The translations under genes and the position numbers were made by a program. A stretch of DNA of 63,222 nucleotides, filler included, from Chrysochromulina tobinii (taxonomy: Eukaryota), in assembly GCA_001275005.1 (NCBI GenBank). It is 6 parts of 6 records of this genome, joined end to end, with 100 filler letters (N's around TTAATTAATTAA, not from the genome) between each part and the next. Parts side by side here need not be neighbours in the genome. Positions count along the whole stretch, not along the records: positions 21,893 to 40,892 come from JWZX01000572.1; 5 more parts are not named here. One strand, 5' to 3'. Positions 16,200 to 57,699 of this stretch are shown piece by piece (the stretch's first letter is position 1; each line of letters starts with the position of its first letter). Below the pieces are notes generated by a model. It saw nothing but the letters and a program-made list of their open reading frames with translations, did not search any database and had not been told where the DNA came from.

Positions 16200-18421
16200 A
16201 TGAAGTGGGTCAGCAAAGCGCCCTTGCCGACGGTTGGCGAGCCGGGCGAGGTGCGGCTGGTGCCCGAGACGGCCGAGGACCTGTGGCACACGTACAATAT
16301 GCTCGCCATCGGCGATGCCCTCTCCGCGAACACGATCCGCAAGGTGGCCAAGGAGTCGTCCACCGGCTCGGTCGAGAGCCACCGCGTGCACGTGACGCTC
16401 GCCGTGAAGCTGAAGAGCATCGACTTCGACCCCGAGGGTGGCGAGCTGCGCCTCGGAGGTAGCGTGCTCAGCGAGGTGGAGGGCGTACGCCTCGGCTCGC
16501 ACCACACGCTCTCGCTCGAGTGCCATCGGCCCTTCTCGCTGCACAAGGAAGAGTGGGACATGGTCGCCATCGACCGGCTGCGCGAGGCGACCTCGGGCGA
16601 GTGGAGCGGCGCCGACCTTGCGGCCATCCTCATCAAGGAGGGTGCCACGGGCGGCCTCGCCAACGTGTGCCTCATCTCAAACGGCATGTCGATCGTGCGC
16701 GCGAAGCTCGAGACTCCTCCTTTGCCGAAGCAGGGCGACCCGCGCGTGGTGCTCGGAGCGAAAAAGGCGCGCGAGCACTGGTTCAAGCAGGTGCTCGACG
16801 CGGTGGTGCGCCACGTCGACTTCGGCACTGTCAAGTGCCTCGTGCTCGCAGGGCCAGGCTTCACCAAAGACGCCTTTTACGAGTATGCTGATTGTCGCTG
16901 ATTGCCATGAGGGCCGCGGGTGACGAGTGCGCGCGCGTGCCTCTTTCAGGTACGCGATGGTTGAAGCTCAGCGGCGCGAGATGCGCGAGCTGCTCGCCTC
17001 CCAGACCAAATGGGTCCTCGTGCATGCAACCTCGGCTTACAAGTACACGCAGCCACACTCACGCCCACGGATGGCCCCGGATGGTCGCCTCTGATGACCT
17101 CTGATGACCCTCTGATTGCACTCACGCCCACGGATGGCCCCGGATGGTCGCCTCTGATGACACTCTGATGACACTCTGATTGCACTCACGCCCACGGATG
17201 GCCCCGGATGGTCGCCTCTGATGACACTCTGATGACACTCTGATGACACTCTAATGGCCCCGGATGGTCGCCTCTGATGACACTCTGATGACACTCTGAT
17301 GACACTCTAATGGCCCCGGATGGTCGCCTCTAATGGCCCTCTGATGGCCCTCTGATGGCCCTCTAATGGCCCTCTGATGACACTCTGATGGCCCTCTAAT
17401 GGCCCTCTGATGACACTCTGATGGCCCTCTAATGGCCCTCTGATGACACTCTGATGGCCCTCTAATGGCCCTCTGATGACACTCTGATGACACTCTGATG
17501 GCCCTCTGATGACCATTTGATTGCAGATGATTAGCACTGATGGTCCCTGATGGCCCATAATGGTCCCTGATGGCCACTGATGGTCACTGATGGCCACTGA
17601 TGGTCACTTGATGACCACTGATGACCACTGATGACCACTGATGGCCACTGATGGCCACTGATGGCCACTGATTGCTGCGGATGGCGCCTGATGACGATCG
17701 AGCGCCTCCCGCATCCACTGATGACCTCTGATGACCACTGATGACCACTGATGGCGATCGAGCGCCTCCCGCATCAGGCACGCGCTCAAAGAGATCTTCG
17801 CCGACCCGAGCGTCGCTACACGCGTGAGTGACACGCGGGCGATGGCGGAGGTGCTCGTGCTCCGACAGTTCTTCGAGATCTGATGAGCTCTGATTGCCTC
17901 TGATGACCTCTGATTGCATCCCTCATCAGGTGCTCGTGCTCCGACAGTTCTTCGAGGCGATGGCCGACAAGCCTGACCGCGTCACGTATGGCCTGCGCCA
18001 CGTGCGCTACGCCACCGAGCAGGTCGATGGCCCTCCCCCCCCCTCCCCCACCCTCCCCCACCCTCCCCCACCCTCCCCTGTCAACCGCTCAAAGACTCAC
18101 TGCGCCACGTGCGCTACGCCGCCCGCCGAGCAGGGCGCCATCGACCGTCTGCTGCTCGCCGACACCCTCTTCCGCGCGCAGCACGTACAGCGGCGTGCAC
18201 AGTACGTGGCCCTCGTCGAGGCCGCGAAGGCGGCTGGCGCGGCAGTCCACATCTTCTCCGATCTGCATGCATCTGGCGAGCAGCTCGCCGGGCTCGGGGG
18301 CGTCGCGGCGCTCCTTCGGTACCCAATGCCGCAGCTCGACGAGCTCATGCAGGAAGAGAATGAGGGTGACGTTGGGGAGGGGGAGGATGGGAGCACTGGC
18401 GGGGGGCACACGACGACATGA
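16200..18421 (+). CDS. PELO: Pelota/Dom34 ribosome-rescue factor; exons 16200-16882, 16950-17042, 17778-17850, 17930-18022, 18134-18421
   Basis: GEVRLVPETAEDLWHTYN, TIRKV, LAGPGFTK, VHATSAYKHALKE, DRVTYG, LLLADTLFR and HASGEQLAGLGGVAALLRYP. Four GT-AG introns restore a continuous frame. Confidence 0.93.
17043..17777 (+). repeat. 735-nt pelota intron made of hierarchical 10/11-bp tandem repeats (CTGATGACAC/CTGATGGCCC/CTGATGACCA types) within larger repeated units
   Basis: Direct reading; GT at 17043, CAG ending at 17777. Confidence 0.88.
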
Positions 18422-21544: not shown

Positions 21545-22454
21545 CGTAGATCGATTCAAGCCGCGCGCACAAATAAGGCCGCTCTCACGACACGCTCTGT
21601 TGTCTCGCTCTCAGTCCACTCCCGCATCCTGAGCGTGCTGAGAACCTCACGCCTCGCGGCCTGATCACGTGAAGCGAGCCGACGCGGCCAATCGCCGTTT
21701 TCTATCACCTTGTGGACTCGCAAAGCTGGATTTCCCGAGTTCTAGAACCCTCCTTTTTTTCTCTAAGGGGCGGAACGCATTTGAGCGCGTCGNNNNNNNN
21801 NNNNNNNNNNNNNNNNNNNNNNNNNNNNNNNNNNNNTTAATTAATTAANNNNNNNNNNNNNNNNNNNNNNNNNNNNNNNNNNNNNNNNNNNNGGTGGGGG
21901 GAAGGGGGGGCTGGCCGGTGGGACGGCTACGCCTGGGGATGGACGGCGTGAGTCGGTTCCACCCGAGGAGGGGCAAATAATGATCGACCTGCGAGTCTGC
22001 GAAAAGCTGAATACGCAATGCCGGACGAGATCGGGAACGCCGGATGGCATTTCGCTTTTCGTTTTCCGCATTGGTTTTCCGGCGACGAATTTAGTCTTTG
22101 GCATAAGGGCATTGCTCCGCTCGCGCCTCGCGGTTCCGGGATCGTCCGATAAGGGATTACTCAGAGGTAATCAGTGCCAATCAGAGGTCATCAGAGCCAA
22201 CGTCCTTGGAGCGCGCTGGCTTCTATAAATTATAATTTGCATCAAACGGAGAATTTGTGGGCTAAGGTACCCCGGTAACGGAACCCTCTCTCCCGCGCAC
22301 ATGAATCCCTGCGCTAAATAAGTGCATGCCGATGACGAATGCCCAGCGCATGCTTCAGATCACGACATGCCCCCGGCGGACACTGCCAGTGATCACTGCA
22401 CGGGAATTCGCACCAGATGACACGCGGGAACAGCCTCTCCTCTCCACCGCCACC

Positions 22455-26279: not shown

Positions 26280-29200
26280 TTACCTCCTAACGCCTGGCGA
26301 AGGTTTCTTCTTCGCATCGGTCTCTGCCGCCATCTTGGGCTTCTTCCTAAGGGACCTGCGAAGACTCTGATTGAGTTCGCGGTAGTCCAGCTGGCCCGTC
26401 CCGTCGGGATCGAGATCCGAAAAGATCTTCAAGATGTCCGCCTGCGAGCACTTGAAGTTCATCCTTTGCATCGCCATTGCGAACTCCTCGCGGTCGATGA
26501 AGCCGGATTTGTCCTTGTCCCACTCCTGGAATAAGTCGAGGACGCGTCCCTTGGACTCCTTCAGCGCCTCGCGCAGAGCGTATTGGACATACTCGGACAG
26601 GTCCACAGTGCCACTATCATCGAGGTCGAGGCGGTAGAAGAGATCCTTAAGCTCCTTCTCCGTCGGCTCCGGCAGGCCATCCTTGGCGCATCGCTCGATG
26701 CGCATTGAACGGAACTCGTCAAAATCAAGTTCCGTGTTGCCGTCACTGTCCGCTTTCATAAAGTCGTCCACGCGGATCTTCATGTTGCTCTGGAAGTCGC
26801 CCCTGCCCGCGCCCTCAAGGTCCGTCGGATCCACCTCAGGCGTCGCCGCCCGCGTTGCAATGCTACCTAAGGGGCTCGTCTTGGACAGCAGCTTGGCGGC
26901 CGCGCCGGCAGCCTTCAACTTGCCCATGCCCATGCCGTTGCCCTTCGACGGTACCTGTACCTTGGGGGGAGGCTTGGGCCCATCGAGGCTTGGGCCCGAC
27001 GCCGCCCCCGCATTCATAATACTAGCTGCACGGCGCAAGAACTTGTCAAATTCTTGAAACTCGATGTAGCCAGATTTATCCGGATCGAAGTAGTCAAACG
27101 TATTGTCCACTACTTGTGGCGGAAAGTCGGGACCCATGATGGCGAACGCGTCCCGGAAGTCCTTCTTAGAGATTTTACCGTCGTCGTCGCCGCCCATGTC
27201 ACGGAAGAGGTCGAGCACGCGTGTATTGTTTTTCTTGAGGCCCTCGCGCAGCTGGTCAACCACCGATTTGTTCGGGTCGTACATGAGCTGGACTGAACGC
27301 AGGCTCGACTTTTCCCCGGTCACAGGTCCCCTCGAGCTCTCCGGTGACTTCATGCGATAGGATGACGCTTGCGAGGCGGCAGCTTGGGCCTTCGACAACC
27401 TGGACCGCAACGCCTCGAGCTGCGTCTCGAGCTCCGTGCGGATCGCCGCCGCCTCGAGCTCCAGCTGACGCCGCTGGTCCGCCAACAGCTTCGCGAGCCG
27501 CCGCTCCGCCTCGTCGGCTTGCTCCCTCATCTGCTTCTTCATCTGCTCCTCGGCAGCCTTCGCCAATTTCTCAGTTTCGAGAGCCTCATCCGCTCGGACC
27601 TTCATCGTCGCCGACGCGTCCTTTTCGAAAGCGATCTGCCGAAGCGCCTCCTTGAGCTGCCGCAGGTGCTCGAGCGATGCCGCGCGCGCGTCCTCGAGCG
27701 CCTTCTTGAGCTCCTCCTGCTTTTGCACGCTCTCGACCTCAACCTTGTACAGCTTGCCCTCGACCGACTCGCGATTGCGCCTCTCGATCTCGAAGCGCTC
27801 TTTGTGCGTCATCTTGAACTTCATCACGTGGTCCAGCTCCCATTCATGCTTCCAGTCCATAAACGAGTGCACCAGCTTTGGCTTCGACAGCCGGAGCGCA
27901 GCATTTGCCAGCAGCCGCTTCTGCCGCGCCCGCAACAAGTATGCGTCCGCCCAAGCCGTCCAGCCGCGAGCCATGTCCTTCCTGCCTAGGCGTCGGGCGG
28001 CCACTTGGGTAAGGTGCTCGACGCGAGCCTCCTTCTCCGCGACTGCGCGGGCCGCTTGGGCGCGTGCAAGGTCCGATTCGCCTGTCGCCGTGCTCTCGCG
28101 CAACCGAGCCAGCTCGACCCTGAAGTGGGACAGCTCTGCCTCAAGGGCCCGATTGCGGGCAGCCAGCTCGGCAGCCTGCTGCTCGGCCGTGCCCAGGACG
28201 CGCGACGTCTTGTTCAGTGTCGACGTCTTCCAGTCGACGCGCCAGTGCATGTACGCGCTCACCACCTTGGGCTTCGCGAGGCGAACGGCGGCGGCAAGCA
28301 GCAACCGCTGCTGGCGCTTCTTGGTGGACCACATGTCGATCCAAGCGCTCATGCCGCGCGAGAGATCCTTCTGCATGATCCGGCGCGCCGCCATGCGCTG
28401 CAGGTGAGCGATGCGCTTCTCCTTCTCCTCCTCGAGCTGGCGTTTGAGCTCGAGCTCACTCTTAGCGGTGCCGCCATCGAACAAGCTTAGCTTGGCGAGC
28501 AGCTCATCGCGCTCTGCGAGCGCCGTCTTGAGCTTCTTCTCCATGTCAAGCTTCAGCTTCTTTGCCTCCGCCTCCGCCAGCTCCGCCTTCGCCTTGGCGT
28601 GCTTCGCGTGATGCTTATGCGTGTTGTGGGAGAGCTGGACCGCCTCCATCTCCCAGTCCTTACGCCAGTGCGTGTACATGAACACGAGCCGAGGCTTGGT
28701 GAGGCGCGACGCTGCAGCGGCCAAGAGGCGCTTGTTGCGCGCCTCCGCGTAATACTTCTCAGACCACGTCGTCCAGCCACGCGAGATCTCCTTCTTTCCA
28801 AGCCGCTTCACTGCCATCTGCGTAATATGCTCGATGCGCTTCTGCTTCTCGGCAGCTTCCTTCTCTGCCAACTGGCGACGCATCTCGTCTTCCTTGGCAT
28901 TGCCGTTGAGTGCGGCCTCGCGCGCCTTGAGCAGCTCCGCCGCGGTCTTCTCTAACTCCGCCTTGTACTTCTCCGCCTTAGTCTTCTCGGCCTTGTACTT
29001 CTCGACGAGAGTCATCTTAGACTGCGCGAGCATCTCAGCTTCCCAGTCGTGCTTCCACTGCAAGTAGCCCGCAGACAGCTTGGGCTTGGCCAGCCTGGAC
29101 GCGGCCGCACGTAGCAGCCGCTTTCGGCGCAGGTCCTCCAAGTACACCTCTGACCACGTCTGCCAGCCCATCGAGAGCTCCTTCTTGCCCAGGCGGCGCA

Positions 29201-32200
29201 CGGCCATCTGCGTGAGGTGCTCGACTCGCTTTTCCCTCTCCTTGGCTGCTTCTTCCAAGGCGAGCTGACGGTACTCCTCCTCGGCGCCTCCCGCACGGGC
29301 AGCCGCCGCCCTGGCAGCCTCGAGCTCTTGCTTCATCGCCTTCAGCTCAGCATCGACGGCACTGCCTGAGGCCATCTGTGCCACCGCGGCCTTCGCGCTC
29401 GTGCGCTTCTTGGCCTGCTCGACGGCCCAATCTTGCGACCAGTGCCCGTACGATGCAGCAAGCTTGGGCTTCGCCAAGCGGGATGAGGCGGCACGCAATA
29501 GCCGCTCGTTGCGCCTCTTGGACTCCCACATGTCGATCCAAGCGCTCATGCCACGCGAGAGATCCTTCTGCATGATCCGGCGCGCCGCCATGCGCTGCAG
29601 GTGAGCGATGCGCTTCTCCTTCTCCTCCTCGAGCTGGCGAGCCATCTCGAGCTCACGAGCAGCCAGGCCACCATCGAGCTCAGAGAGCCGCGCGATAAGC
29701 TCATCGCGCTCCCGCTGGGCCGTAGCGAGCTTACGATTCATTTCCTCGCGAGCCCTGCGTGCCTCAGCCTCTGCAGCCTCGGCGCGGCTGATCTGAATGG
29801 CCAGTTGTTCACCCTGAGACATGTGCTTGAGTGCAGCCATCTCGGTTTCCCAGTCGCTCTTCCAGAGCGCGTAGCCAGCAGACAGCGCGGGCTTCGTCAG
29901 ACGAGAGCTGGCCGCCTTCAGCAGCCGCTTCTGGCGCTGCGCCTCATAGCACATCTCCGACCAAGCCCCAAAGCCACGTGATATCTCCTTCTTGCCCATC
30001 CGACGGGCGGCCATCTGCGTGAGATGCTCGACGCGCTTCTCCTTCTCCAATGCGGCCTTCTCCTCCATCTGGCGGCGCAGCTCGTCTTCTTTGGCGGTGC
30101 CGTTGAGCGCCGCTTGGCGGGCACGCTCGAACTCAATCCGTAGGCGCGAAAGCTCGGCATTCGCAGCATTGAGCTGCGCCTCCTTTTGATCGAAGCGCTC
30201 TTTGAGAGTCATCTTCTTCTGCATCTTCATCTCGTGCTCCCAGTCGAGCTTCCACTGAGTATAGCCCCCGGATAGCCGGGGCTTCGCAAGCTTTACAGCT
30301 GCGGCGGTGAGCAGCCGCTTGCAACGCGCCCCCTCAAAGTAAGCCTCGGCCCACGACTCCCACGCCATCGCGATACCCTTCTTACCGAGGCGACGAACAG
30401 CCATCTGCGTCAGGTGCTCGACACGCTTCTCACGTTCGTTGATGGCCTGCTCCTCGCGCTGCCGCTGCCGCTCAACCTCGAGGGCATCGCCATTTGCGAC
30501 AGCCTCGCGCAGTTTGGAAAGCTCTGCGCGCACCTTGGACAGCTCCGCCTCGCTTTCCAAGTAGTTTTTGCGCTGCGCCTCAGCTTTGGCAGCTTCCTCG
30601 GCAAGCCGCTCAGCTTGCGTCATGCTCTGGAGACGGCCCATCTCCTCAAACCAGTCCGCGCGCCAGTGTGCGTAGCCCGCAGCGAGCTTGGGCTTCGTCA
30701 GACGAATGCTGGCCGCAAGCAGTAACCTTTTGCGACGCTGCATCTCCATGCACAGATCGGCCCAAGTCTCGAAGCCGCGCGCAATCTCCTTCTTGCCAAA
30801 CCGCCGTGCTGCCATCTGGCTCAGATGCTCCACGCGCTGCTGCTTTGCGGCCTCGGCCTTCTCCTCCATCTGGCGCCGAATCTCGTCCTCCCTAGCGGTG
30901 CCATTGAGCGCGGCATCGCGAGCACGCTTCAACTCAACGCGCGCCTGCGCCAGGTCAGCCTCGGTGTTTGCGAGCTTGGTAGCCATGGAGTCCAGCTGCT
31001 CCTTGTAGGTCATCGTCGCCACTGCCTTTATCTCCGCCTCCCAATCCTGACGCCACTGAGCGTAGCCTGCAGACAGCTTCGGCTTGGCCAGCTTGGCACC
31101 TGCGACGAGCAGGAGGCGCTTGTTCCGCTGCTCCCTTTCGTACTGGTCCACCCACGTCGAGAAGCCCATCGCGATCTCCTTCTTGCCCATGCGGCGTGCC
31201 GCCATCTGGCTGAGATGCTCGACGCGCTTCTCCTTCTCACGCTCAGCCGCCTCCTCGGCCTGGCGACGGCGCTCGTTCTCGAGGGCAGTACCGTTGAGGG
31301 CAGCCTCACGCGCCCTGGCAAGCTCTGCCTCCACCTTGGCCAGCTTTGCATTGACGGCGGCAAGGTTTGACTGCTCGAGATCGAGGCGTTGCTTCAGGGT
31401 CATGGTTGCAGACACCTGCTTCTCGTCCTCCCAGTCATGCTTCCACTGTGTGTAGGCGGAAGACAGATGCGGCTTGGCAAGCTTCGAGCCCGCTGCGGCG
31501 AGCAGCCGCTTCTGGCGCAGCCTCTCGTAGTAAGCCTCGGCCCAGGACTCCCACGCCATCGCGATGCCCTTCTTACCGAGGCGACGAACAGCCATCTGCG
31601 TCAGGTGCTCGACGCGCTTCTCCTTCTCATAAGCCGCCTGCTCCTCGACCTGGCGACGGCGCTCATCCTCAAGTGCCGTGCCGTTAAGAGCCGCCTCCCG
31701 AGCACGAGCCAGTTCCTTGCGCAGCTTGACAAGCTCTTGCTCCTGCTCGGCAATCTTCTTGCGGTTCTCTGCCGCCACCTCGGCCTGGTGCTTCATCATT
31801 TCCTCCTGTGCGTCGAAGGTCTTGGAGACCACCTGATCTTCCCAGTCCTTCTTCCACAGCGAGTAGCTCCCTGAAAGCTTTGGCTTGGCCAGCTTCGAGC
31901 CGGCCGCGGCGAGCAGCCGCTTGCGACGAACCAGCTCGAAGTACATGTCTGCCCACGCCTCGAAGCCACGCGAGATCTCCTTCTTGCCCATGCGGCGAAC
32001 GGCCATCTGGGTCAGATGCTGCACACGCTGCTCCTTCTCCATGGCCTGGCGCTCCTCCATCTGGCGGCGCATCTCATCCTCTTTGGCGGTGCCACTGAGC
32101 GCCGCCTGGCGGGCCTTACCCAGCTCAATGCGCAGCTTGGCGGCTTCAGCCAGGGCATCCTCGAGCTTCTTCTTCTCAGCCTCAAGTTTCTCCTGCATCG

Positions 32201-35200
32201 TCATCTTCGAGTTGGCGCGCATCTCCATTTGCCAATCGGCGCGCCAGTGGGCGTAGCCTGCGGCGAGCTTGGGCTTGGAAAGCCTAGCGCCCGCAGCAAT
32301 GAGCAGCCGCTTCTGGCGCTGCCGCTCATAGTGCATCTCGGCCCACGCCTCGAAGCCCATTGAGATCTCCTTCTTGCCCATGCGGCGTGCTGCCATCTGG
32401 CTGAGGTGCTCGATGCGCTTCTCCCTCTCCGCAGCGAGCTCCTGCTCAGCCCGCTGGCGCAAGAGCTCCTCCCGACCATTGCCACTCTCCATCGCCTCGC
32501 GCAGGGCCTCGAGAGCCTCGGTGGCCTTACGAAGGTTGACTTCGGCCAAATCGGCGCGCGCCTTTTCGCTTGCGAGTCGCTGCTTGTCCGTGAGGCGGGC
32601 GTCGGCTCTAATTTGGGACTGCCAGTCCATGCGCCAGTGCGTGTAGCCTGCGACCAGCTTCGGCTTCATGATTTTTGCGCCCGCAGCGAGCAGAAGGCGC
32701 TTGCGCCGCTGCGCCTCATAGTACATCTCCGACCACGTCGAGAAGCCCATCGCGATCTCCTTCTTGCCCAGCCGACGAGCCGCCATCTGGCTGAGGTGTT
32801 CGACGCGCTTCTCCTTCTCGCGCTCAGCGGCCTCCTCTGCCTGGCGACGGCGCTCGTTGTCGAGGGCAGTGCCGTTGAGGGCAGACTCGCGAGCGCGGGC
32901 AACCTCATCACGAAGCTTCGCAAGCTCCTCGTCCTTTTCATGGATGCGCTTCTCTTGAGCATCGAATCGCTCTTGAAGGGTCATGCTCGCGGCCGTCTTC
33001 ATCTCATCCTCCCAGTCGTGCTTCCACTGAGCGTAGCCTGCAGCCAGCTTGGGCTTGGAAAGCCTAGCGCCCGCAGCTGTGAGCAGCCGCTTCTGGCGCT
33101 GCCGCTCATAGTACATCTCGGCCCACGCCTCGAAACCCATCGAGATCTCCTTCTTGCCCATGCGGCGTGCCGCCATCTGGCTGAGGTGCTCGACGCGCTT
33201 CTCCTTCTCGTAAGCGGCTTGCTCCTCGGCCTGGCGACGGCGCTCGTTCTCGAGGGCAGTTCCGTTGAGGGCGGCTTCGCGAGCTTTGCTGAGCTCGACC
33301 TGCAGCTTGGAGATCGTCGCCTCTGCGTTGGCGAGCTTTGCCTGCTCGGCTTCAAGGCGCTCCTTGTGCGACATCTTGGAGACCAGGGTCATCTCCATCT
33401 GCCAGTCGCGTTTCCAGTGCGCGTAGCCGGAAGAAAGAGCAGGTTTGGCAAGCTTCGAGCCCGCAGCGGCGAGCAGCCGCTTCTGGCGCTGTGCCTCATA
33501 GCACATCTCCGACCAAGCCTCAAATCCACGTGAGATCTCCTTCTTGCCCATCCGACGGGCGGCCATCTGCGTGAGATGCTCGACGCGCTTCTCCTTGTCG
33601 AAAGCAGCTTGCTCCTGACGCTGACGTGCAAGCTCCTCCTCGCGAGCCGTGCCGTTTATGGCAGCTTCACGAGCCCGAGCGAGCTCCGCGCGGAGCTTTG
33701 CAATCTCGACGTCATTCGCAGCATTCTTCTTGAGCTCAACCGCGAGCTGCTCCGAGACCGTCATCTGGGCCGAAGCGATCATCTCATCGTCCCAGTCGCG
33801 CTTCCACTGAGCGTAGCCTGCAGCCAGCTTGGGCTTGGAAAGCCTGGCGCCAGCAGCTGTGAGCAGCCGCTTCTGGCGCTGCCGCTCATAGTACATCTCG
33901 GCCCACGCCCCGAAGCCCATCGCGATCTCCTTCTTGCCCATGCGGCGTGCCGCCATCTGGCTGAGGTGCTCGACGCGCTTCTCCTTCTCATACGCCGCCT
34001 GCTCTGCACGCTGGCGTGCAAGCTCCTCCTCGCGAGCCGTACCATCAAGGGCAGCTTGGCGAACTTTCTCGAGCTCATATCGTAGTTTTGACACCTCTGC
34101 CTCGAGCGCTCGTCGTTCCTCAGCAAAGATTTCTTTCTGGCTCTTGGTCTTGTTGCGCTGCGTCTCAAACTCCCAGTCGTGCTTCCAGTGCGTGTAGCCT
34201 GCGGCCATCTTGGGCTTGGCAATCTTGGCGCCGGCAGCTGCGAGCACCCGCTTCTGGCGCTGCGCCTCATAGTACATCTCCGACCACGTCTGGAAGCCCA
34301 TCGCGATCTCCCTCTTGCCCAGCCGACGAGCCGCCATCTGGCTGAGGTGTTCGACGCGCTTCTCCTTCTCGCGCTCGGCCTCCTCTGCACGCTGACGTGC
34401 AAGCTCCTCTTCGCGAGCCGTGCCGTTGAGGGCAGCCTCACGAGCTCGAGCGAGTTCATCCCGAACTTTGGTCAGCTCGGCAAGAGTGACATCATGCTTG
34501 GCCCTTTCCGCTGCGATTTTCTCGCTCGCCGTCATCGACGCCTCCTGCTTTTGCTCGTCCTGCCACGCGGCGCGCCAGAGAGCGTAGCTGGCACTCAGAG
34601 CAGGTTTGGCAAGCTTTGAGCCCGCTGCGGCGAGCAACCGCTTCTGGCGCTGCCGCTCATAGTACATCTCGGCCCACGCCCCGAAGCCCATCGAGATCTC
34701 CTTCTTGCCCATGCGGCGTGCCGCCATCTGGCTGAGGTGCTCGATGCGCTTCTCCCTCTCCTTAGCCGCTTCCTCCTCGAGCTGCCGCTGGCGCTCTTTC
34801 TCGCTCATTCCCTGCATAAGGGAAGACTTGCGTGCAAGGCTCAGCTCCTCCTTGACGCGCTCCAGCTCAACCTGCAGCTGCTCTCGCCTCTGCACCTCGT
34901 CGGCCAGCCGCTCCTTGGTGCTTTTCTTCGCGAGGATCTGCTGCTCCACCTTCCACTCCGTCCGCCACTGCACGTAGCTCGCCACTAGCTTGGGACGAGC
35001 GAGCTTCATCCCAGCCTGCGCAAGCACGCGTAGCTGCCGCCGCTTCTCGAGGTACTGCTCCTGCCAGGCTGACCAGCCGCGCATGATGTCCTGGTTGCCA
35101 ATGCGGCGAAGGGCTCGCTGCTGCAGGTAGGCAACGCGCTGCTCTTTCTCTTCCTCTTGCTTCTCCTTCATGCGCCGCTGCAGCTCGGCCTCTTGCGCAT

Positions 35201-37034
35201 TGCCAGTGAGCGCTTCGTCACGCAGCTTGGCGAGCTCAGCTCGCACGTCGTGCAGCTCCGCCTCAGCCTTTTGCCGCTTCTCAGTCTCGGCAGCTAGCCT
35301 CTCTTTCAGCGGCATGGTGGCCATGACACGCCTTTCCTCCTCCCAGTCGCGCTTCCAGTTCGCGTAGCACGCTGAAAGATGCGGCTTGGTCAGCTTGGCG
35401 CTGGCAGCCTGAAGCAGCCGCTTGCGTCGTCGGTGCTCGATGAACATGGGTTGCCACGTATCCCAGCCGCGAGACAGCTCCCTCTTGGCGAGGCGACGGA
35501 TGGCCATCTGGCACTGGTGCTCCACGCGCTTCTCCTTCTCGGCGGCGCCCTTCTCGGCTTCGGAGGCGTTCATTTGGAACTTCTCTGCCTCGGACGCTTC
35601 CAGGATGCGCCGCGTCTCGGAGAGATCCGCCTTGGTCTTCTCGAGCTCTGCCTGCATGCCCTTGCACAGCATCTCATACTCCGCCAGGCGCTGCTCGACG
35701 GTCATATTCGCCTTCTTCGCCTGCTCAGACTTCCAGCTGCTCTGCCAGTGCTGGTAGCCTGCGACGAGCCGTGGGCGCGGCAGTCGAGCGCCCGCTGCCT
35801 TGAGCATGCGCAAGCGGCGCTGCTTCTCCTGATGCGCCTCGAGCCACGCGGACAAGCCACGCGCAAGGCCCTTCTGCAGCAGTCGGCGCACGCCGACGGC
35901 CTGCAAGTGGGCGACGCGCTTCTCTCGCTCCTCCTCGAGCAAGCGCTCGGCCTCGGAACGCATGGAGTCGACGCCGCGGCTCACATCCGCCAGTCGCATG
36001 TCCTCTGCCAGTTCACGCTCGCGCACGCGCTCCTCCTTCTCGTGCTTGAGCTCGATCTCGAGCGCGCGGACGCGCTCGACGAAGCTACGGCGCTCCTCCT
36101 TGAAGGCCTCCGCCTGCGCATTCTTCTGCGCGAGCAGCTGCTCGTTGCTCTGCGTAGCCGCAGCGAGCTTGGCGTTGACCACCTCGAGCTCAGCCTCGAG
36201 CCGCACAATCTTGTCGAGAGCTGCTTGGAGCGCATCCTCCTTGGCGTTGATCTCGGCCTGCATCTGCGACTGCATCACGTCCTGCTCATTCTCCAAGCGC
36301 GAGAGCTCTGCCTCGAGCGCTAGACGCTGCTCGTGCATCGCCTTGGCGAGGTGGAGCTCTTCGGCGACCTTTTCTTGCTCGATATGAAGCGCCTCGTCAC
36401 GTGCGCGCTTCATCGCCATGAGAGCGCGCTCCTCTCCGATGCGTGCAATCTGGCGCTGCTCACGCTCCTGTACGAGTCGGTTCTGCGCAGCCCGCAGGAC
36501 GGACGCCGTGAGGCCGAGCTCGAACTGTAGCTGCTGGTTGGCCTGGCGTGCGGCCGGGCTGCGAGGCGTGACTTGCGGTGCCGGAAGCGAATATTCGCCC
36601 GGCGACCGCAGCGCAAAGATTTCGGAGCGCAGCCGCCCATCGCCGCCAGCCTTCTCCGGCGCCGAGCCGGGGCGCATGACCGTGGGGCCCTTGAGATGCG
36701 GCCGTACGTCTGGTGAAAAGAGCGGCGTGGCCGTCGACGACACGCGCGTCCGGGCCGACGATGGGCGCGTCGGCTGGGGATACACGACCAGCTGCGTGCC
36801 GTCTGCGGCCCCGGCTGACCTCAACTGCTTTGGTTGCTGGAGCTTGTTTTGCACCACCTTTTGCTGCGGCACCAAGTACGTCGTCGCAGCTGCTACACCA
36901 GCTGGATCTGTCCTCGAGTCGGGTTGATTGCGAGGCGATTGCCCCGGCGTGAGCTCATCGTTGATCTCCTCCCACGCACCAACCGCGATTGAGTTGGCGG
37001 GCACGTATCGGGATCGGGGCGGTAGCACCATCAT
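26280..37034 (-). CDS. Giant intronless coiled-coil protein (~3580 aa) with ~21 repeats of ~130 aa carrying Sfi1-like motifs, and six C-terminal EF-hands
   Basis: Single uninterrupted ORF (track 26280-37418; ATG 37034 is the more plausible start). Repeat EKRVEHLSQMAARRMGKKEISMGFEAW...KPKLAAGYAQWK with a ~390-nt period. EF loops include DPDKSGYIEFQE, DSDGNTELDFDE, DLDDSGTVDLSE, DKDKSGFIDREE and DPDGTGQLDYRE. Confidence 0.88.
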   Translation of the reverse strand: MMVLPPRSRYVPANSIAVGAWEEINDELTPGQSPRNQPDSRTDPAGVAAATTYLVPQQKVVQNKLQQPKQLRSAGAADGTQLVVYPQPTRPSSARTRVSSTATPLFSPDVRPHLKGPTVMRPGSAPEKAGGDGRLRSEIFALRSPGEYSLPAPQVTPRSPAARQANQQLQFELGLTASVLRAAQNRLVQEREQRQIARIGEERALMAMKRARDEALHIEQEKVAEELHLAKAMHEQRLALEAELSRLENEQDVMQSQMQAEINAKEDALQAALDKIVRLEAELEVVNAKLAAATQSNEQLLAQKNAQAEAFKEERRSFVERVRALEIELKHEKEERVRERELAEDMRLADVSRGVDSMRSEAERLLEEEREKRVAHLQAVGVRRLLQKGLARGLSAWLEAHQEKQRRLRMLKAAGARLPRPRLVAGYQHWQSSWKSEQAKKANMTVEQRLAEYEMLCKGMQAELEKTKADLSETRRILEASEAEKFQMNASEAEKGAAEKEKRVEHQCQMAIRRLAKRELSRGWDTWQPMFIEHRRRKRLLQAASAKLTKPHLSACYANWKRDWEEERRVMATMPLKERLAAETEKRQKAEAELHDVRAELAKLRDEALTGNAQEAELQRRMKEKQEEEKEQRVAYLQQRALRRIGNQDIMRGWSAWQEQYLEKRRQLRVLAQAGMKLARPKLVASYVQWRTEWKVEQQILAKKSTKERLADEVQRREQLQVELERVKEELSLARKSSLMQGMSEKERQRQLEEEAAKEREKRIEHLSQMAARRMGKKEISMGFGAWAEMYYERQRQKRLLAAAGSKLAKPALSASYALWRAAWQDEQKQEASMTASEKIAAERAKHDVTLAELTKVRDELARAREAALNGTAREEELARQRAEEAEREKEKRVEHLSQMAARRLGKREIAMGFQTWSEMYYEAQRQKRVLAAAGAKIAKPKMAAGYTHWKHDWEFETQRNKTKSQKEIFAEERRALEAEVSKLRYELEKVRQAALDGTAREEELARQRAEQAAYEKEKRVEHLSQMAARRMGKKEIAMGFGAWAEMYYERQRQKRLLTAAGARLSKPKLAAGYAQWKRDWDDEMIASAQMTVSEQLAVELKKNAANDVEIAKLRAELARAREAAINGTAREEELARQRQEQAAFDKEKRVEHLTQMAARRMGKKEISRGFEAWSEMCYEAQRQKRLLAAAGSKLAKPALSSGYAHWKRDWQMEMTLVSKMSHKERLEAEQAKLANAEATISKLQVELSKAREAALNGTALENERRRQAEEQAAYEKEKRVEHLSQMAARRMGKKEISMGFEAWAEMYYERQRQKRLLTAAGARLSKPKLAAGYAQWKHDWEDEMKTAASMTLQERFDAQEKRIHEKDEELAKLRDEVARARESALNGTALDNERRRQAEEAAEREKEKRVEHLSQMAARRLGKKEIAMGFSTWSEMYYEAQRRKRLLLAAGAKIMKPKLVAGYTHWRMDWQSQIRADARLTDKQRLASEKARADLAEVNLRKATEALEALREAMESGNGREELLRQRAEQELAAEREKRIEHLSQMAARRMGKKEISMGFEAWAEMHYERQRQKRLLIAAGARLSKPKLAAGYAHWRADWQMEMRANSKMTMQEKLEAEKKKLEDALAEAAKLRIELGKARQAALSGTAKEDEMRRQMEERQAMEKEQRVQHLTQMAVRRMGKKEISRGFEAWADMYFELVRRKRLLAAAGSKLAKPKLSGSYSLWKKDWEDQVVSKTFDAQEEMMKHQAEVAAENRKKIAEQEQELVKLRKELARAREAALNGTALEDERRRQVEEQAAYEKEKRVEHLTQMAVRRLGKKGIAMAWESWAEAYYERLRQKRLLAAAGSKLAKPHLSSAYTQWKHDWEDEKQVSATMTLKQRLDLEQSNLAAVNAKLAKVEAELARAREAALNGTALENERRRQAEEAAEREKEKRVEHLSQMAARRMGKKEIAMGFSTWVDQYEREQRNKRLLLVAGAKLAKPKLSAGYAQWRQDWEAEIKAVATMTYKEQLDSMATKLANTEADLAQARVELKRARDAALNGTAREDEIRRQMEEKAEAAKQQRVEHLSQMAARRFGKKEIARGFETWADLCMEMQRRKRLLLAASIRLTKPKLAAGYAHWRADWFEEMGRLQSMTQAERLAEEAAKAEAQRKNYLESEAELSKVRAELSKLREAVANGDALEVERQRQREEQAINEREKRVEHLTQMAVRRLGKKGIAMAWESWAEAYFEGARCKRLLTAAAVKLAKPRLSGGYTQWKLDWEHEMKMQKKMTLKERFDQKEAQLNAANAELSRLRIEFERARQAALNGTAKEDELRRQMEEKAALEKEKRVEHLTQMAARRMGKKEISRGFGAWSEMCYEAQRQKRLLKAASSRLTKPALSAGYALWKSDWETEMAALKHMSQGEQLAIQISRAEAAEAEARRAREEMNRKLATAQRERDELIARLSELDGGLAARELEMARQLEEEKEKRIAHLQRMAARRIMQKDLSRGMSAWIDMWESKRRNERLLRAASSRLAKPKLAASYGHWSQDWAVEQAKKRTSAKAAVAQMASGSAVDAELKAMKQELEAARAAAARAGGAEEEYRQLALEEAAKEREKRVEHLTQMAVRRLGKKELSMGWQTWSEVYLEDLRRKRLLRAAASRLAKPKLSAGYLQWKHDWEAEMLAQSKMTLVEKYKAEKTKAEKYKAELEKTAAELLKAREAALNGNAKEDEMRRQLAEKEAAEKQKRIEHITQMAVKRLGKKEISRGWTTWSEKYYAEARNKRLLAAAASRLTKPRLVFMYTHWRKDWEMEAVQLSHNTHKHHAKHAKAKAELAEAEAKKLKLDMEKKLKTALAERDELLAKLSLFDGGTAKSELELKRQLEEEKEKRIAHLQRMAARRIMQKDLSRGMSAWIDMWSTKKRQQRLLLAAAVRLAKPKVVSAYMHWRVDWKTSTLNKTSRVLGTAEQQAAELAARNRALEAELSHFRVELARLRESTATGESDLARAQAARAVAEKEARVEHLTQVAARRLGRKDMARGWTAWADAYLLRARQKRLLANAALRLSKPKLVHSFMDWKHEWELDHVMKFKMTHKERFEIERRNRESVEGKLYKVEVESVQKQEELKKALEDARAASLEHLRQLKEALRQIAFEKDASATMKVRADEALETEKLAKAAEEQMKKQMREQADEAERRLAKLLADQRRQLELEAAAIRTELETQLEALRSRLSKAQAAASQASSYRMKSPESSRGPVTGEKSSLRSVQLMYDPNKSVVDQLREGLKKNNTRVLDLFRDMGGDDDGKISKKDFRDAFAIMGPDFPPQVVDNTFDYFDPDKSGYIEFQEFDKFLRRAASIMNAGAASGPSLDGPKPPPKVQVPSKGNGMGMGKLKAAGAAAKLLSKTSPLGSIATRAATPEVDPTDLEGAGRGDFQSNMKIRVDDFMKADSDGNTELDFDEFRSMRIERCAKDGLPEPTEKELKDLFYRLDLDDSGTVDLSEYVQYALREALKESKGRVLDLFQEWDKDKSGFIDREEFAMAMQRMNFKCSQADILKIFSDLDPDGTGQLDYRELNQSLRRSLRKKPKMAAETDAKKKPSPGVRR

Positions 37035-37520
37035 TGGCGAATCCGGTCTGCGAAAAGGTGAGCAACGATCCTCAGGTGAGCCAGGGTGAACGGCTCGTGC
37101 AAGCGAGCGGCGGTGGCGCGTGTGTGCGCGCGGGTGTGCGTGCGCGGGTGCTGGCGATTGACGAGTGGCGCACATGCTGCTATCGGAGAGCGTCGGTGAC
37201 GGCCGATCGCCCGCTCCCGTGATAGTCTTGGGCAGCATGCTCCCGGTGTGACGAAAAGCGCCGAGATGGACAGACCCTGGTGCGGCGCTCGCGGTCGGCC
37301 GTGCAGCCCTGCGTCTCGTCCACGGCCGGCTGTCTGTTCTTCGGAAAGTCTGTTTTCTTGCCCTCGCTCGCGCAATCGCGTTGCGGGCATACATATCCTC
37401 GACCCCTTCGTTCAACATACGTCAGTGGCCTCTCGAAATTAACGGGACCACCTGAGCCCATTGTATTGTTTAATGTTGGCAGGTATTCACAGACACACTT
37501 CACTTCACGCGGTTTGGGAA

Positions 37521-39023
37521 ATGCTGACGTGGACGAACGATGCCGACGCCCCCGTTTGGCTGCTCTCGACCGCGCTTGCTGCTGCCGTTCTGTCCGTCTA
37601 CTGGCAGACGCTCTGCCCGACCGTGCCGGGTGGTGATTCTGGTGAGCTCATCCAGGTGGCCATCGAGATGGGCGTTGCTCACCCGCCGGGCTACCCAACC
37701 TGGACGATGATGGCGTACGCCTTCTCTCGGCTCCCATGGGGTGAGCCCGCGTGGCGAGTCAACCTGTCATCAGCCGTGTGCGGTGCGCTCAGCAGTGCGC
37801 TACTCTCCGCTGCCATCGGCTCGTGGGTCGGCTGCGCGTGGACTGGCATCGCGGCAGGCGGTGCCTTTGCCTTCTCGCCGCTCGTCTGGATGTACGCCGT
37901 GCAGGGCGAGGTCTTCGCGCTCAACAACCTGATGAACGCGCTGCTGCTCTTCCTGCTCGTCCGATACGATGCGCAGCCGACCCTCGGCCGCGCGTGCGCC
38001 GGCGCCTTCGCCATCGGCCTCGCACTCACCAACCAGCACACGATTATCTTCTTCTGCGCGCCCTATGCGGTTTGGGCGCTGCTCGTTGGCGGGCGAGCGC
38101 TCCTAACGCCGCGCGCGCTCGCGTGCCTAGTACTGAGCGGCCTGCTGGGCCTCTCGCCTTACGCGTACCTCGTGCTCGTGGGCGGCGAGCAGGCCGCGTG
38201 GGGCTCGTGGGGCGACACGACCTCGGTCCAGGGCTTCTTCATTCACCTGCTGCGTAGGGAGTATGGCACCTTCCGGCTCGCGAACACGGCCGCGATCACG
38301 GACGACGAGTTCGGGCTGCGCGTGCGCCGGTACTTTAGCTCGCTCACCGATGAGCTGCCGCCGCTCGGACCAGCCCTCGCCATCCTCGGCGCCGTGAGCG
38401 GTGTCTCGTCAGCCTTCGCTGGGATGCTTGGCCACGTCGGTGGCAGTGGCGGCAGCGCAGGCGCAGGCGCAGGCGTTGGTGGCAGCGGCGGCGGTGGTGG
38501 GCGTGGTGGCCGCGGCGCTAAGCTCGAGAGATGGCTACGCGCTGCTCCGAGCACGGCGACCAGCGGGGCGGCGACCAGCGGGGCAGCTGCTAGCGGCGGC
38601 GACGATGGCCGCTGCCCCTCCGCGACGCCTTCCGCTTTCAAGGCGCCATCCCGGGCACCTTCCATGTTAGGAGGTACGAGATCCGAGGAGGATGGCGCTG
38701 TTCTGAGCACGGTCGGCACGAGTCCGAATGTGGCATCAGAGGCGGAGGCGGCGGAGGCGGCGGAGGCGGCGGCGGTGGAGGCGGACGAGGCGGCCGCGGC
38801 GGAGGCGGCCGAGGCAGCAGCGGAGGCGGCCGAGGCAGCCGCGGCGGTGGCGGCGGCTGCGGCGGTGCTCGCGGAGGCGCGAGTGGCGGCAGTTAGAACT
38901 GCCAAGGCAGCCAAACGCAAAGATGCCCGGGAAGGTGCTCGGGAAGGCGCTCGGGACGGCGCCCGTGAAGGCGCCCGGGACGGCGCTCGGGACGGTGGCA
39001 CCGGCGCCGCTGTTGGCAGTGGT

Positions 39024-39054
<31 letters not shown>

Positions 39055-40892
39055 TCGTCGTCGGCGGCGGCGGCGAGCTCAGCGGCGGCGGCGGTGGCCA
39101 TGGCCTTGGGCTGCTCCTTGTGCTGTCATACGCTCTCTACGTGGGCGTCTTCAATTACATGTCCAATCTACCCGCCTCGTCCGAATTCTACCTCCAGGTG
39201 CAGCAGCGCTTCTGGCCGCAGGCCAACATGCTCTGCTGCGTCTGGTTTGCCCTCGGGCTGCGGCAGGTGAGTCTCGTCAATTGCCTCTGATTGCGTCTGA
39301 TTGCGTCTGATTGCGTCTGGTTTGCCCTCGGGCTGCGGCAGGTGAGTCTCGTCAATTGCCTCTGATTGCCTCTGATTGCCTCTGATTGCGTCTGATTGCG
39401 TCTGGTTTGCCCTCGGGCTGCGGCAGGTGAGTCTCGTCAATTGCCTCTGATTGCCTCTGATTGCCTCTGATTGCCTCTGATTGCCTCTGATTGCGTCTGG
39501 TTTGCCCTCGGGCTGCGGCAGGTGAGTCTCGTCAATTGCCTCTGATTGCCTCTGATTACCTCTGATTGCCTCTGATTGCCTCTGATTGCCTCTGATTGCC
39601 TCTGGTTGCGTCTGGTTTGCCCTCGGGCTGCGGCAGGTGGTGAGCGCGCTGCGCCGAGCACCGAGCGTACTGCCACCGTGGGCCCCGATGCTGCCCCGGT
39701 GGGCGTCGCCACTCCCGATGCCGTTGGCGACGGCGGCACTACTCTTCGTGCATGCATCTCACCACTACGACGCCTCCGACATGTCCCGAACCGTCATCTT
39801 CCGAGATTACGGCCTCGAGATGCTCCGAGGCATCCCCGACAAGCCGCGCGTCCTGCTCCTCACCCTGGGTGATGAGGTGCTCAACGCGGCGCGCTACGTG
39901 CACCGGCAGCTCGGCGTGCGCCCTCTGCATGCAAGTGCTCACCACGGCGCCCTCGCGTCTCCCCATAGGTGCTCAACGCGGCGCGCTACGTGCACCGGCA
40001 GCTCGGCGTGCGGCCCCAGCTGACGATCCTCGATCAGAACTACGTGCAGTTCGACTGGTTCGTGCGGCGCATCCGCGGCAAGGGTGAGTACGCGCAGCTC
40101 GAGCTGCCCGGCGTCTCCTACGGCACTGCCAAGGGCGCCTTCTTAATCAGGCAACTCATCGACGCCAATTACGACGGCTGGTCGATCTTCGTCGCGGGTG
40201 GCATGCACACCGCCGACTCGTCCTGGCAGCCCATCGAGGGCTACCCGCAGCTTGGCGGCTACCGTCTCTGGCCGCTCGGCATGGTCATGCAGATCTTGCG
40301 GGTCGAGAGCCGGATCAATCTGGACAAGTGAGGGCTGCTGATTGCGACTGAGTGCGACTGAGTGCGACTGAGTGCGACTGAGTGCACCCTACATCAGGTG
40401 GGCGTCCAAGTCGGAGAAGTTGCTGCCGCGGCTCGAGTGGCCGAAACCACCACCCGTGGGCTCGTGGGAGGAGGTCCTCGCGAAGAACCACTACCTGGCC
40501 GCGTACACCAACCGGCCGTACTACCCACTTCAGTACGCTTACGAGGCGCTGCCGGAGCGCGGTGGCTCGGCGGCGGAAGCGCGCGATCGTTTCTTGTTGG
40601 CCGCTCGGTTGCATGAGGCGTCGCACGACCTGACGCTCAACGGCTCGCGTGCGCTGCCCGACTACTTTTTCCGAAATTGGGGTGAGGGGATCGCGCCCTC
40701 CGATTGCCTCTGATTACCGTTGATGACCTCTGATTGTCCTCCTCATCGGCGTGCTGCAGGCGTCGCGTACTCGCAGCTGCTCGCGACGGAGCGATCGGAC
40801 GAGGGCGTCGCCGCGCTCAAGCAGCGCGCGATGAATGCGTTCCTCAAGTACCTTGCCTTCAGCACACTGACAGAGGAGGATCGGTTCACTGT
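37521..40892 (+). CDS. TMEM260: TMEM260-like (DUF2723) protein O-mannosyltransferase, 3'-truncated; exons 37521-39266, 39637-39876, 39969-40327, 40398-40681, 40760->40892
   Basis: PTVPGGDSGELI...GVAHPPGYPTW, AWRVNLSSA, EVFALNN, LTNQHT, HLLRREYGTFRL and RFWPQ. Four GT-AG introns keep the frame. Confidence 0.85.
39267..39636 (+). repeat. Intron of four tandem GTGAGT...(TTGCCTCTGA)n...exon-end-copy-CAG units
   Basis: Units 39267-39341, 39342-39426, 39427-39521 and 39522-39636. Confidence 0.9.
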
Positions 40893-40992
40893 NNNNNNNN
40901 NNNNNNNNNNNNNNNNNNNNNNNNNNNNNNNNNNNNTTAATTAATTAANNNNNNNNNNNNNNNNNNNNNNNNNNNNNNNNNNNNNNNNNNNN

Positions 40993-42029
40993 TCACGAGC
41001 AACCTCGTCGAGGTGACCGAGCTCGACCTGTCGGACAGCCGCGCCGCCGGTCGCCTCATCGCCGACGCGGCCGACGCGTCACGCTGGCTGCCCAACCTGG
41101 CAAAGGTGACCGGGCTGGGCGGCTTCGAGGTGGACGTGGCCGCGCTGAGGCGCGTGGAGTCTTCGGGTGAAGACTCGTACCCGATGGAGGGGGTGCGCGC
41201 GTGCATCCGCGGCGAGGGCGAGGCGCCGATGGAGGTGCTGCTCGCCGCGTGCGTGCTGCGCCACGGCGAGGCGTGCGTGCCGGCGAAGGCGTTCTGCGGC
41301 GACACGTCGATGACGTCGATCGAGCTGCCTGCCGGCCTCACGAGCCTCGGTGAGGACGCCTTCTCTGGCTGCTCCTCGTTGACGTCGATCGAGCTGCCCG
41401 CCGGCCTCACGAGCCTCGCTGGGGGCGCCTTCTTTGGCTGCTCCTCGATGACGTCGATCACGCTGCCCGCCGGCCTCACGAGCATCGGTGAGTACGCCTT
41501 CTGGGGCTGCTCCTCGATGACATCGATTGTGCTGCCTGCCGGCCTCACAAGCATCGGTGAGGGGGCCTTCTCGGGCTGCTCCTCGATGACGTCGATCGAG
41601 CTGCCCGCCGGCCTCACAAGCATCGGTGATCACGCCTTCTATGGCTGCTCCTCGTTGACATCGATCGAGCTGCCCGCCGGCCTCACAAGCATCGGTGAGG
41701 AGGCCTTCTATGAGTGCTCCTCGTTGACGTCGATCACGCTGCCCGCTGGACTCACGAGCATTGGTGAGCGCGCCTTCTATGAGTGCTCCTCGATGACGTC
41801 GATCACGCTGCCCGCCGGCCTCACAAGCATTAGTGAGCACGCCTTCTATGAGTGCTCCTTGTTGACGTCGATCGCGCTGCCCGCCAGCCTCACGAGCATC
41901 GGTGAGGGCGCCTTCCGTGGCTGCTCCTCGATGACGTCGATTGAGCTGCCCGCCGGCTTTGATGAAAGCATTCTCAGGTTCGCCCGAGTACCTTCCAGCG
42001 CCATCCTTCGCTTTGGATACTTTCCTTAG
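40993..42029 (+). CDS. 5'-truncated BspA/TpLRR-type leucine-rich repeat protein
   Basis: About 9-10 tandem 23-aa (69-bp) repeats CSSLTSIELPAGLTSIGExAFxG. Confidence 0.9.
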
Positions 42030-49836: not shown

Positions 49837-50657
49837 AACTGCGCCGACTGAAACTGTGCCGACTGAAACTGGTGCCGACTGAAACTGGTGCCGATCACAT
49901 GTCGAGATGGCGTTGGGGGACTGAAATGACGTGCAAGTAGATGTACGGTAGGTGGAGCGTGGAGCTCCCAGGGGAGAGCTCCAGCTTGTGCCATGAGGGG
50001 TGGGGGGGCGATGAGGGGTGGGGGGGGATGAGCGTCGAGATGAGCGTGGAGGTCGCCTCGCCGGCAAGTAGACCTCCCTCGAGAGGCGCCGTCGTGGGCG
50101 TACGCCGGAGCCGGCAGGTCCCGCAACTCTAGTGTTCGTAACGTAATTCCCATTATGGCGAGCGCATTATCGAAAGTTTAAGTTCGAAAGACGAAACCAT
50201 GCGCGACGGGGCACGGGCGCGCTTCCGTTCCTGGAGCCCGGCCGTTTGGGATTCATATTGGGCAGGAGGGGCGGGGGAATGGCCATAAAGGGCTGTATCA
50301 CGGTATCATATAATCACAAGAACTGTGTCACTATGGTTGTCAAACTTTGCCAAAATAACCATACCCACCCTTACCCAATCCCAAACCCGCTGATTGCGAG
50401 TATCAGACTGCCTGTTGGCATGAACGAAACCACTGACGAAACGCGTCAGAGAGGCGTTAGAAAAGTTTGTTTTGTCTCACCGGACCGTACCTAACGAGGC
50501 GGGCGACCATCGGGCGGCTAGCGAACCCCCCCTTGGCAGAGGGCGGTTCGTTTGCAANNNNNNNNNNNNNNNNNNNNNNNNNNNNNNNNNNNNNNNNNNN
50601 NTTAATTAATTAANNNNNNNNNNNNNNNNNNNNNNNNNNNNNNNNNNNNNNNNNNNN

Positions 50658-57599: not shown

Positions 57600-57699
57600 N
57601 NNNNNNNNNNNNNNNNNNNNNNNNNNNNNNNNNNNNNNNNNNNTTAATTAATTAANNNNNNNNNNNNNNNNNNNNNNNNNNNNNNNNNNNNNNNNNNNN

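What the first reader, a model, noticed from the sequence alone, without database searches (positions are those of the whole stretch)
39267..39636. Four stacked mini-introns of 75, 85, 95 and 115 nt with zero-length exons
Seen: each unit is GTGAGTCTCGTCAA + (TTGC(C/G)TCTGA)n + a 30-nt copy of the upstream exon end (TGCGTCTGGTTTGCCCTCGGGCTGCGGCAG). This gives CAG|GTGAGT junctions at 39341, 39426 and 39521. Units grow by whole 10-mers, and the repeat grades into the exon copy (TTGCCTCTGA > TTGCGTCTGA > TTGCGTCTGG). Inference: microhomology-driven template switching between repeat and exon. Each unit is a complete intron, so this is a compact candidate for recursive splicing.
Basis: partly seen in the sequence, partly recalled or inferred. 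Interest (0 to 1): 0.78.

Follow-up and report, generated by a model that had tools for sequence, protein, structure and literature searches.

The report
Young algal intron copied in tandem
In a membrane-enzyme gene of the freshwater alga Chrysochromulina, an intron site that is empty in near-identical wild relatives holds three or four complete-looking short introns end to end, likely made by an insertion that duplicated 33 bases of the gene and was then recopied in place; whether the cell cuts them out one by one is untested.

Summary
The anatomy is exactly as described. The host is a TMEM260-like gene of Chrysochromulina tobinii. The unit count is unsettled. A second assembly with identical flanks has three units; contig depth fits 3-4 units in one run and about 1 in another. 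The site is empty in 2 of 2 near-identical metagenome ORFs that cover it, so the intron is very young. Donor and 10-mer are not local products. At least six other loci share the donor block, one also stacked, and the window holds two more clear stacks and two introns with 29- and 46-nt junction repeats. Best reading: insertion of family filler with a 33-nt target duplication, then in-place multiplication. Any retained unit gives a stop, and all routes end in one mRNA. Recursive splicing is plausible but untested. The only RNA contig across the site comes from an allele that may lack the array. The scan already noted stacked mini-introns in fungi and a repeat-flanked intron in this genome. New variant of a known kind.

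The parts
37524..39266 (+). Exon 1 of a TMEM260-like (DUF2723) protein O-mannosyltransferase gene, 581 codons, ends ...GLRQ with CAG (phase 0)
   Evidence: ORF; Pfam PF11028 E 4e-29; haptophyte homologues
39237..39269 (+). First copy of the 33-nt junction repeat (30-nt exon end plus GTG); its start resembles the 10-mer run (9/12)
39267..39341 (+). Unit 1, 75 nt: GTGAGT donor block, 3 decamers with branch-like CTGAT 31 nt from the end, exon-end copy ending CAG
   Evidence: identical in L001
39342..39426 (+). Unit 2, 85 nt, 4 decamers
   Evidence: identical in L001
39427..39521 (+). Unit 3, 95 nt, 5 decamers; not present as a separate unit in L001
39522..39636 (+). Unit 4, 115 nt, 7 decamers, last branch-like motif 41 nt from the end; its CAG is the only acceptor that restores the frame
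39637..39876 (+). Exon 2 (VVSALRR...TLGDE); begins GTG, which completes the 33-nt repeat
   Evidence: 80/80 identical to P0166
39877..39968 (+). Next intron, 92 nt, with a 46-nt junction repeat (2 + 44 nt; starts with a copy of the downstream exon). Spliced in RNA of X15 (no listed differences from the window); present in 8 and absent in 9 of 17 close metagenome ORFs
40328..40397 (+). 70-nt decamer intron without a long junction repeat, skipped in RNA contigs
40682..40759 (+). 78-nt decamer intron without a long junction repeat, branch-like motif 26 nt from the AG, skipped in RNA contigs

Best explanation
The 370 nt are three or four complete-looking short introns standing end to end at a site that is empty in near-identical relatives; they likely arose from one recent insertion that duplicated 33 bases of the exon and was then recopied in place, and they are probably all spliced out with no function of their own. 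Step 1 (inferred): a staggered break or template switch at the CAG|GTG site was filled with the 5' part of an abundant intron family (GTGAGT donor plus branch-point-like 10-mers). The nascent strand rejoined the gene where the exon happens to resemble the 10-mer, so the last 30 exon bases were copied and their CAG became the acceptor. Step 2 (inferred): the 33-nt direct repeat allowed unequal exchange, slippage or repeated rounds of the same switch, giving a stack; 10-nt slippage changed unit lengths and made hybrid decamers. Step 3 (inferred): any donor can pair with any downstream acceptor, and each partial cut regenerates CAG|GTGAGT. Only complete removal gives protein. I put piecewise removal of at least some transcripts at about 55%, one 370-nt lariat only at about 35%, and poor splicing (a weak allele) at about 10%.
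For: Anatomy. Empty sites: P0172 (258/259 residues identical to the window exons) and P0180 (126/129) are unspliced metagenome ORFs that read through other introns yet run straight from exon 1 to exon 2; these are 2 of 2 that cover the site among 17 examined. P0172 keeps the neighbouring 46-nt-repeat intron, which argues against its assembler deleting such repeats. Nine of 9 more distant unspliced-looking ORFs that reach the position also read through (P0006-10, P0015-18). Family origin: at least six other loci with different upstream sequence carry the same 31-40 nt donor block. One X7 contig returns to that donor after 38 other bases (a second stack, period 70). One X1 contig shows 13 bases of its own upstream exon again after the filler (tables 5c, 7, 8). 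Same design in the window: 8442-8204 (-) has two units (139 + 100) in a mitochondrial carrier gene; 53836-53654 (-) has three units (54 + 54 + 75); 17851-17929 has a 29-nt repeat; 39877-39968 has a 46-nt repeat. Microhomology. Stack of 3 or more: two assemblies and X7 depth. All 9 partial products stop at codon 8 of the retained unit. Unit sizes lie in the range of the gene's RNA-supported introns (70, 78, 92 nt), one of which has a branch-like motif 26 nt from the AG, against 31 nt in the units.
Against: X1 depth fits about one donor, not four, although X1 also shows the family motif at only 40x baseline against 109x in X7, so its depths may be compressed. The two assemblies disagree on unit number, may not be independent, and no long reads were seen. 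No RNA from an array-bearing allele was seen across the site. The polyA contig in X18 joins exon 1 to exon 2, but it carries the Gly-to-Ala change at 39830-39831 found in the empty-site alleles, so it may never have held the array. The strain-identical X15 contig stops at 39626. The gene model P0166 joins the exons but mis-models the next intron and may not be independent of the window. Empty alleles could be precise losses through the repeat. The molecular cause (break repair, template switch or a mobile element) was not tested. In Drosophila the exon junction complex suppresses regenerated splice sites (PMC8184009, abstract), which would disfavour step-by-step removal if it holds in haptophytes.
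Confidence: 0.68

Rival explanations
1. The stack is largely an assembly product: one intron flanked by a 33-nt repeat, with variable 10-mer counts among cells, was looped several times by short-read assemblers.
For: The two assemblies differ (3 versus 4 units) and neither last unit is a subset of the other. X1 donor depth is about 1x.
Against: Units 1-2 are identical and in the same order in both assemblies. X7 depth ratios fit 3-4 units. Stacks recur at other loci, including one whose two units have different decamers, and within a single X7 contig.
Confidence: 0.14
2. The intron is older. Replication template switching from its 10-mer run back into the exon replaced its 3' end and iterated; empty alleles are precise deletions through the repeat.
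For: Microhomology at the switch point. An intron at the next position (GDE|V) is also seen in several distant haptophytes, so long repeats might form in old introns.
Against: Nine of 9 distant unspliced-looking ORFs and 2 of 2 conspecific ones lack any intron here. No remnant of an original 3' end exists in the array.
Confidence: 0.08
3. A non-autonomous retro-type or other mobile intron (Introner) inserts with long, variable target duplications, and repeated template jumps in one event lay down the head-to-tail copies.
For: There is a dispersed family with a shared 5' end, tandem-repeat tails, variable 26-46 nt duplications and no inverted repeats. Chrysochromulina Introners without TIRs that co-opt the 3' site are published (PMC9860276, figure legend passage).
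Against: The published duplications are 4 bp (3-9 in general). Several unrelated fillers show the same long repeats, which points to a host repair process more than one element. No autonomous partner was sought.
Confidence: 0.1

Closest known systems
Daphnia pulex neointrons from staggered double-strand-break repair (PMC4202315, passages)
   Same: New, polymorphic introns whose far end repeats the terminal bases of the adjacent exon; repeated rounds lengthen them.
   Different: Repeats are 4-12 bp there and 33 (26-46 in the window) here. The filler here is a recognisable multi-copy intron family, and whole spliceable units are stacked.
Introners, including Chrysochromulina sp. family (PMC9860276, passages; Symbiodinium ILEs, 10.1101/2020.10.14.339549, passages)
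   Same: Sequence-similar introns at unrelated loci; element carries the 5' site and co-opts the 3' site from the target duplication; no TIRs in the Chrysochromulina example.
   Different: Target duplication of 4 bp (3-9) against 33 nt. The word 'tandem' does not occur in the main text of PMC9860276, PMC12130899 or the ILE preprint; supplements were not read.
Recursive splicing at zero-length exons, and dual-specific AGGT sites in tandem repeats (PMC10809524, abstract; other papers seen as search listings only)
   Same: Juxtaposed CAG|GT sites that regenerate a donor; tandem array of dual-use sites as in UBC.
   Different: Classical sites subdivide very long introns and are conserved (recalled). 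Here the span is 370 nt, strain-level and a by-product of duplication; all partial products carry a stop, unlike UBC isoforms.
Fungal stwintrons and complex introns (PMC7138796, passages)
   Same: Compact intervening sequence removable in one step or in consecutive steps; origin by small duplication.
   Different: Stwintrons are nested inside a splice element; these units are abutting and uninterrupted.
Dinoflagellate identical repeated intron boundaries (PMC5032977, passages)
   Same: Exon end repeated at the intron's 3' end, present once in mRNA.
   Different: 2-11 bp, and no stacking described in the passages read.

Membership tests
Recursive splice sites (zero-length exons) | 3' splice site directly followed by a 5' splice site inside an intron | tested here: met
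   CAG|GTGAGT at 39341, 39426, 39521
Recursive splice sites (zero-length exons) | Branch point and acceptor region upstream of each internal AG | tested here: inconclusive
   Branch-like CTGAT 31 nt upstream, near the 26 nt of an RNA-supported intron; no clear pyrimidine tract; use not shown
Recursive splice sites (zero-length exons) | Intermediates or short lariats in RNA | not testable with these tools
   Only contigs were available, and they drop rare forms
Recursive splice sites (zero-length exons) | Conserved site within a long intron (recalled feature of classical cases) | tested here: not met
   370 nt; site empty in conspecific alleles
Introner | Sequence-similar introns at unrelated loci | tested here: met
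   At least six other loci share the donor block over 31-40 nt; full-length similarity not seen
Introner | Empty sites in close relatives | tested here: met
   2 of 2 covering ORFs
Introner | Short (3-9 bp) target duplication | tested here: not met
   33 nt here; 29 and 46 nt at other window introns
Introner | Terminal inverted repeats (present in part of the families only) | tested here: not met
   0 inverted pairs >=8 nt
Introner | Autonomous partner or transposase | not tested
   No genome held
Staggered-break neointron (Daphnia type) | Exon end repeated at the opposite intron end | tested here: met
   30 nt + GTG; longer than the 4-12 bp reported
Staggered-break neointron (Daphnia type) | Presence/absence polymorphism with the intron allele derived | tested here: inconclusive
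   Polymorphism seen and distant relatives are empty; no allele tree built
Stwintron | Internal intron interrupts a splice element of an external intron | tested here: not met
   Units abut and none is interrupted

The most novel reading that the evidence does not exclude
Chrysochromulina runs an active, undescribed intron factory: AG|GT targets of 26-46 nt are duplicated around filler copied from branch-point 10-mer intron families, the long repeats then multiply or delete whole introns, and the resulting stacks segregate in populations and are spliced unit by unit. That would give natural, tunable recursive-splicing ladders in ordinary housekeeping genes.
Probability: 0.33. Interest if true: 0.78.

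Novelty: new variant of a known kind. Interest (0 to 1): 0.52.

Why it matters
Intron gain is rarely caught in the act. One gene here shows two introns with long junction repeats that are present in some near-identical alleles and absent in others, and one of them is multiplied in place. In a culturable alga this makes three things directly testable: how new introns get their sequence and splice sites, whether direct repeats drive both precise loss and stacking, and whether a compact-genome spliceosome removes abutting short introns one at a time. The array itself probably has no function. It also warns that such loci mislead assemblers and gene models.

Tried and rejected
No whole genome is held, so no genome-wide census was possible. 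Four pattern scans for the donor family in viral and prokaryote collections found 0, as expected for a eukaryote. X15 laid nothing on 39100-39296 and X7 lacked the exon-1 contig; neither is evidence. X14 depth is inconclusive. I first took the X18 RNA contig as proof of splicing and dropped that when its allele matched the empty-site ORFs. Coding micro-exons or alternative isoforms are rejected: every partial product stops at codon 8. A hairpin or MITE is rejected: no inverted repeats. A purely local origin of the decamer from the exon is rejected, because the motif is genome-wide. The monotonic length series is not significant. Literature: ten full-text searches listed no paper whose title or abstract start describes stacked or long-repeat-flanked haptophyte introns; only the top 12-25 rows of each were seen. 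The C. tobin genome paper mentions 'intron' once (PMC4580454, passages). The Emiliania genome paper, which I recall reporting 10-11 bp intronic tandem repeats, is not held, so that is recalled only. No supplements were read; those of the Introner papers may list this family.

Full report
Observation. There are four units of 75, 85, 95 and 115 nt, each a 14-nt donor block, 3-7 decamers and a copy of the last 30 bases of the upstream exon. Exon 2 starts GTG, so the junction repeat is 33 nt. Three mononucleotide shuffles of the window gave no GT..AG pair with 14 or more shared junction bases.

Host gene. The upstream ORF (37524-39266) is TMEM260-like, with haptophyte proteins among the best named hits. 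Removing all 370 nt joins GLRQ to VVSAL in frame, collinear with homologues. The stretch across the site is 100% identical to a Chrysochromulina tobinii protein, a gene model that may not be independent of the window. Of the ten single donor-acceptor excisions, nine leave a unit and stop at its eighth codon; only the full removal is open.

Is the stack real? L001 has no mismatch in 4,421 flanking bases but three units. The 75 and 85 nt units are identical to the window's, and a 115-nt unit starts like window unit 3 and ends like unit 4. Contig depths were compared with the k-mer multiplicities expected for each model. X7 fits 3-4 units (donor 3.4x baseline; donor/unit-end 1.53 against 1.59, 1.41, 1.02 and 0.88 for 4, 3, 2 and 1 units). 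X1 gives donor 0.98x and repeat 3.0x, which speaks against four units and fits nothing cleanly; X1 also shows the family motif at 40x baseline against 109x in X7. X14 is inconclusive. The tool states that depth is no copy number. I conclude that a stack is probable and that its count is open.

Age. A search with exon 2 returned 17 close metagenome ORFs besides the gene model. They are unspliced calls, as they run into introns. Two cover the array site and both are empty: P0172 (258 of 259 residues identical) and P0180 (126 of 129). Nine of 9 more distant unspliced-looking ORFs that reach the position also read through (ten proteins were fetched and one ended earlier). The next intron, which has a 46-nt junction repeat, is present in 8 and absent in 9 of the 17, and those 9 break at a later site where the window has no intron. 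Introns in this gene therefore turn over among near-identical alleles.

Source of the filler. At least six other loci with different upstream sequence share 31-40 nt of the donor block. One X7 contig returns to that donor after 38 other bases, a second stack. One X1 contig shows its own upstream exon sequence again after the filler. Within the window the same design recurs. There are two units in a mitochondrial carrier gene (8442-8204, minus strand; both flanks match Mito_carr), three units at 53836-53654 (minus strand; frame open after removal, no Pfam match), and single introns with 29- and 46-nt repeats. Two other introns of the gene have the decamers but no long repeat. The start of the exon copy ties for the best match to the decamer run in exon 1 (5 of 1,731 positions reach 9 of 12).

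RNA. Contigs of X15 and X18 skip the three downstream introns; X15 shows no listed difference from the window, so that allele is expressed and spliced there. One X18 polyA contig runs from exon 1 into exon 2. But it carries the Gly-to-Ala change of the empty-site alleles, so it does not show that the array is excised. Excision in an array-bearing strain is inferred, not shown.

Mechanism. Shown: anatomy, empty sites, shared filler, recurrence, microhomology, and a single productive product. Inferred: insertion with target duplication by staggered-break repair or template switching, then multiplication through the 33-nt repeat and 10-nt slippage. For splicing, unit sizes match normal introns of the gene, every unit has branch-like motifs, and the first AG after them is the unit's own end, which favours piecewise removal. 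Suppression of regenerated sites by the exon junction complex (PMC8184009, abstract) would work against it.

Comparison. The closest cases are Daphnia neointrons (4-12 bp repeats; PMC4202315, passages), Introners including a Chrysochromulina family that co-opts its 3' site from a 4-bp duplication (PMC9860276, passages), dual-specific sites in tandem repeats (PMC10809524, abstract), stwintrons (PMC7138796, passages) and dinoflagellate boundary repeats (PMC5032977, passages). PMC3296678 (passages) lists tandem duplication and break repair as known gain routes. It works like a neointron or Introner with an unusually long duplication and could work like a recursive ladder, but it fails or lacks tests for membership of each. 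Earlier notes of this scan report stacked mini-introns in fungi and a 15-nt-repeat intron elsewhere in this genome; these are leads, not support.

Verdict. A real but labile feature and a new variant of a known kind; interest 0.52. The value lies in the lineage-wide intron-making process that it exemplifies more than in this array.

Noticed in passing
window 8442-8204 (-): Two stacked intron-like units (139 + 100 nt) in a mitochondrial carrier gene. The middle junction is a 26-nt copy of the intronless site, both splice sites come from exon copies, and the two units use different decamers.
   Followed up: partly
window 53836-53654 (-): Three stacked units (54, 54, 75 nt) ending in copies of the exon end; frame open after removal.
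   Followed up: partly
window 57032-56887 (-): Probable two-unit stack (60 + 87 nt) with repeated junctions; boundaries not verified.
   Followed up: partly
window 17851-17929 (+) and about 17030-17776 (+): 79-nt intron starting with a 27-nt copy of the downstream exon in an eRF1/pelota-like gene (weak Pfam hit), and an upstream intron-like stretch of about 700 nt of nested 10-11-mer repeats with repeated ends.
   Followed up: partly
window 39877-39968 (+): 46-nt junction repeat; present in 8 and absent in 9 of 17 close ORFs. Its filler motif has about 1,000-fold depth in X1. Several distant haptophyte ORFs also break at this position, suggesting parallel gain or an old site.
   Followed up: partly
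window about 38231 and about 40112 (+): Near-identical ORFs stop or diverge right after ...TTSVQ (P0121, P0123) or ...ELPG (nine ORFs), where the window has no intron: likely further polymorphic introns in the same gene.
   Followed up: no
window 51657-51510 (-): Two adjacent intron-like segments, each followed by or containing degenerate copies of neighbouring sequence.
   Followed up: no
window 26280-37421 (-): Stop-free frame of 3,713 codons with 390-nt coiled-coil-like repeats and C-terminal EF-hand-like motifs by eye, head to head with the TMEM260-like gene.
   Followed up: no
window 38420-39100 (+): About 225-residue Gly/Ala-rich low-complexity insert in the TMEM260-like protein; relatives have variable inserts at the same place.
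   Followed up: no
window 12626-12725, 21793-21892, 40893-40992, 50558-50657, 57600-57699: N runs around a 12-base all-frame stop spacer: the window is joined from separate contigs, and the gene is cut at 40892 (it continues in L001).
   Followed up: yes
window 41307-41957 (+): 69-nt coding tandem repeat (9.4 copies), leucine-rich-repeat-like by eye.
   Followed up: no
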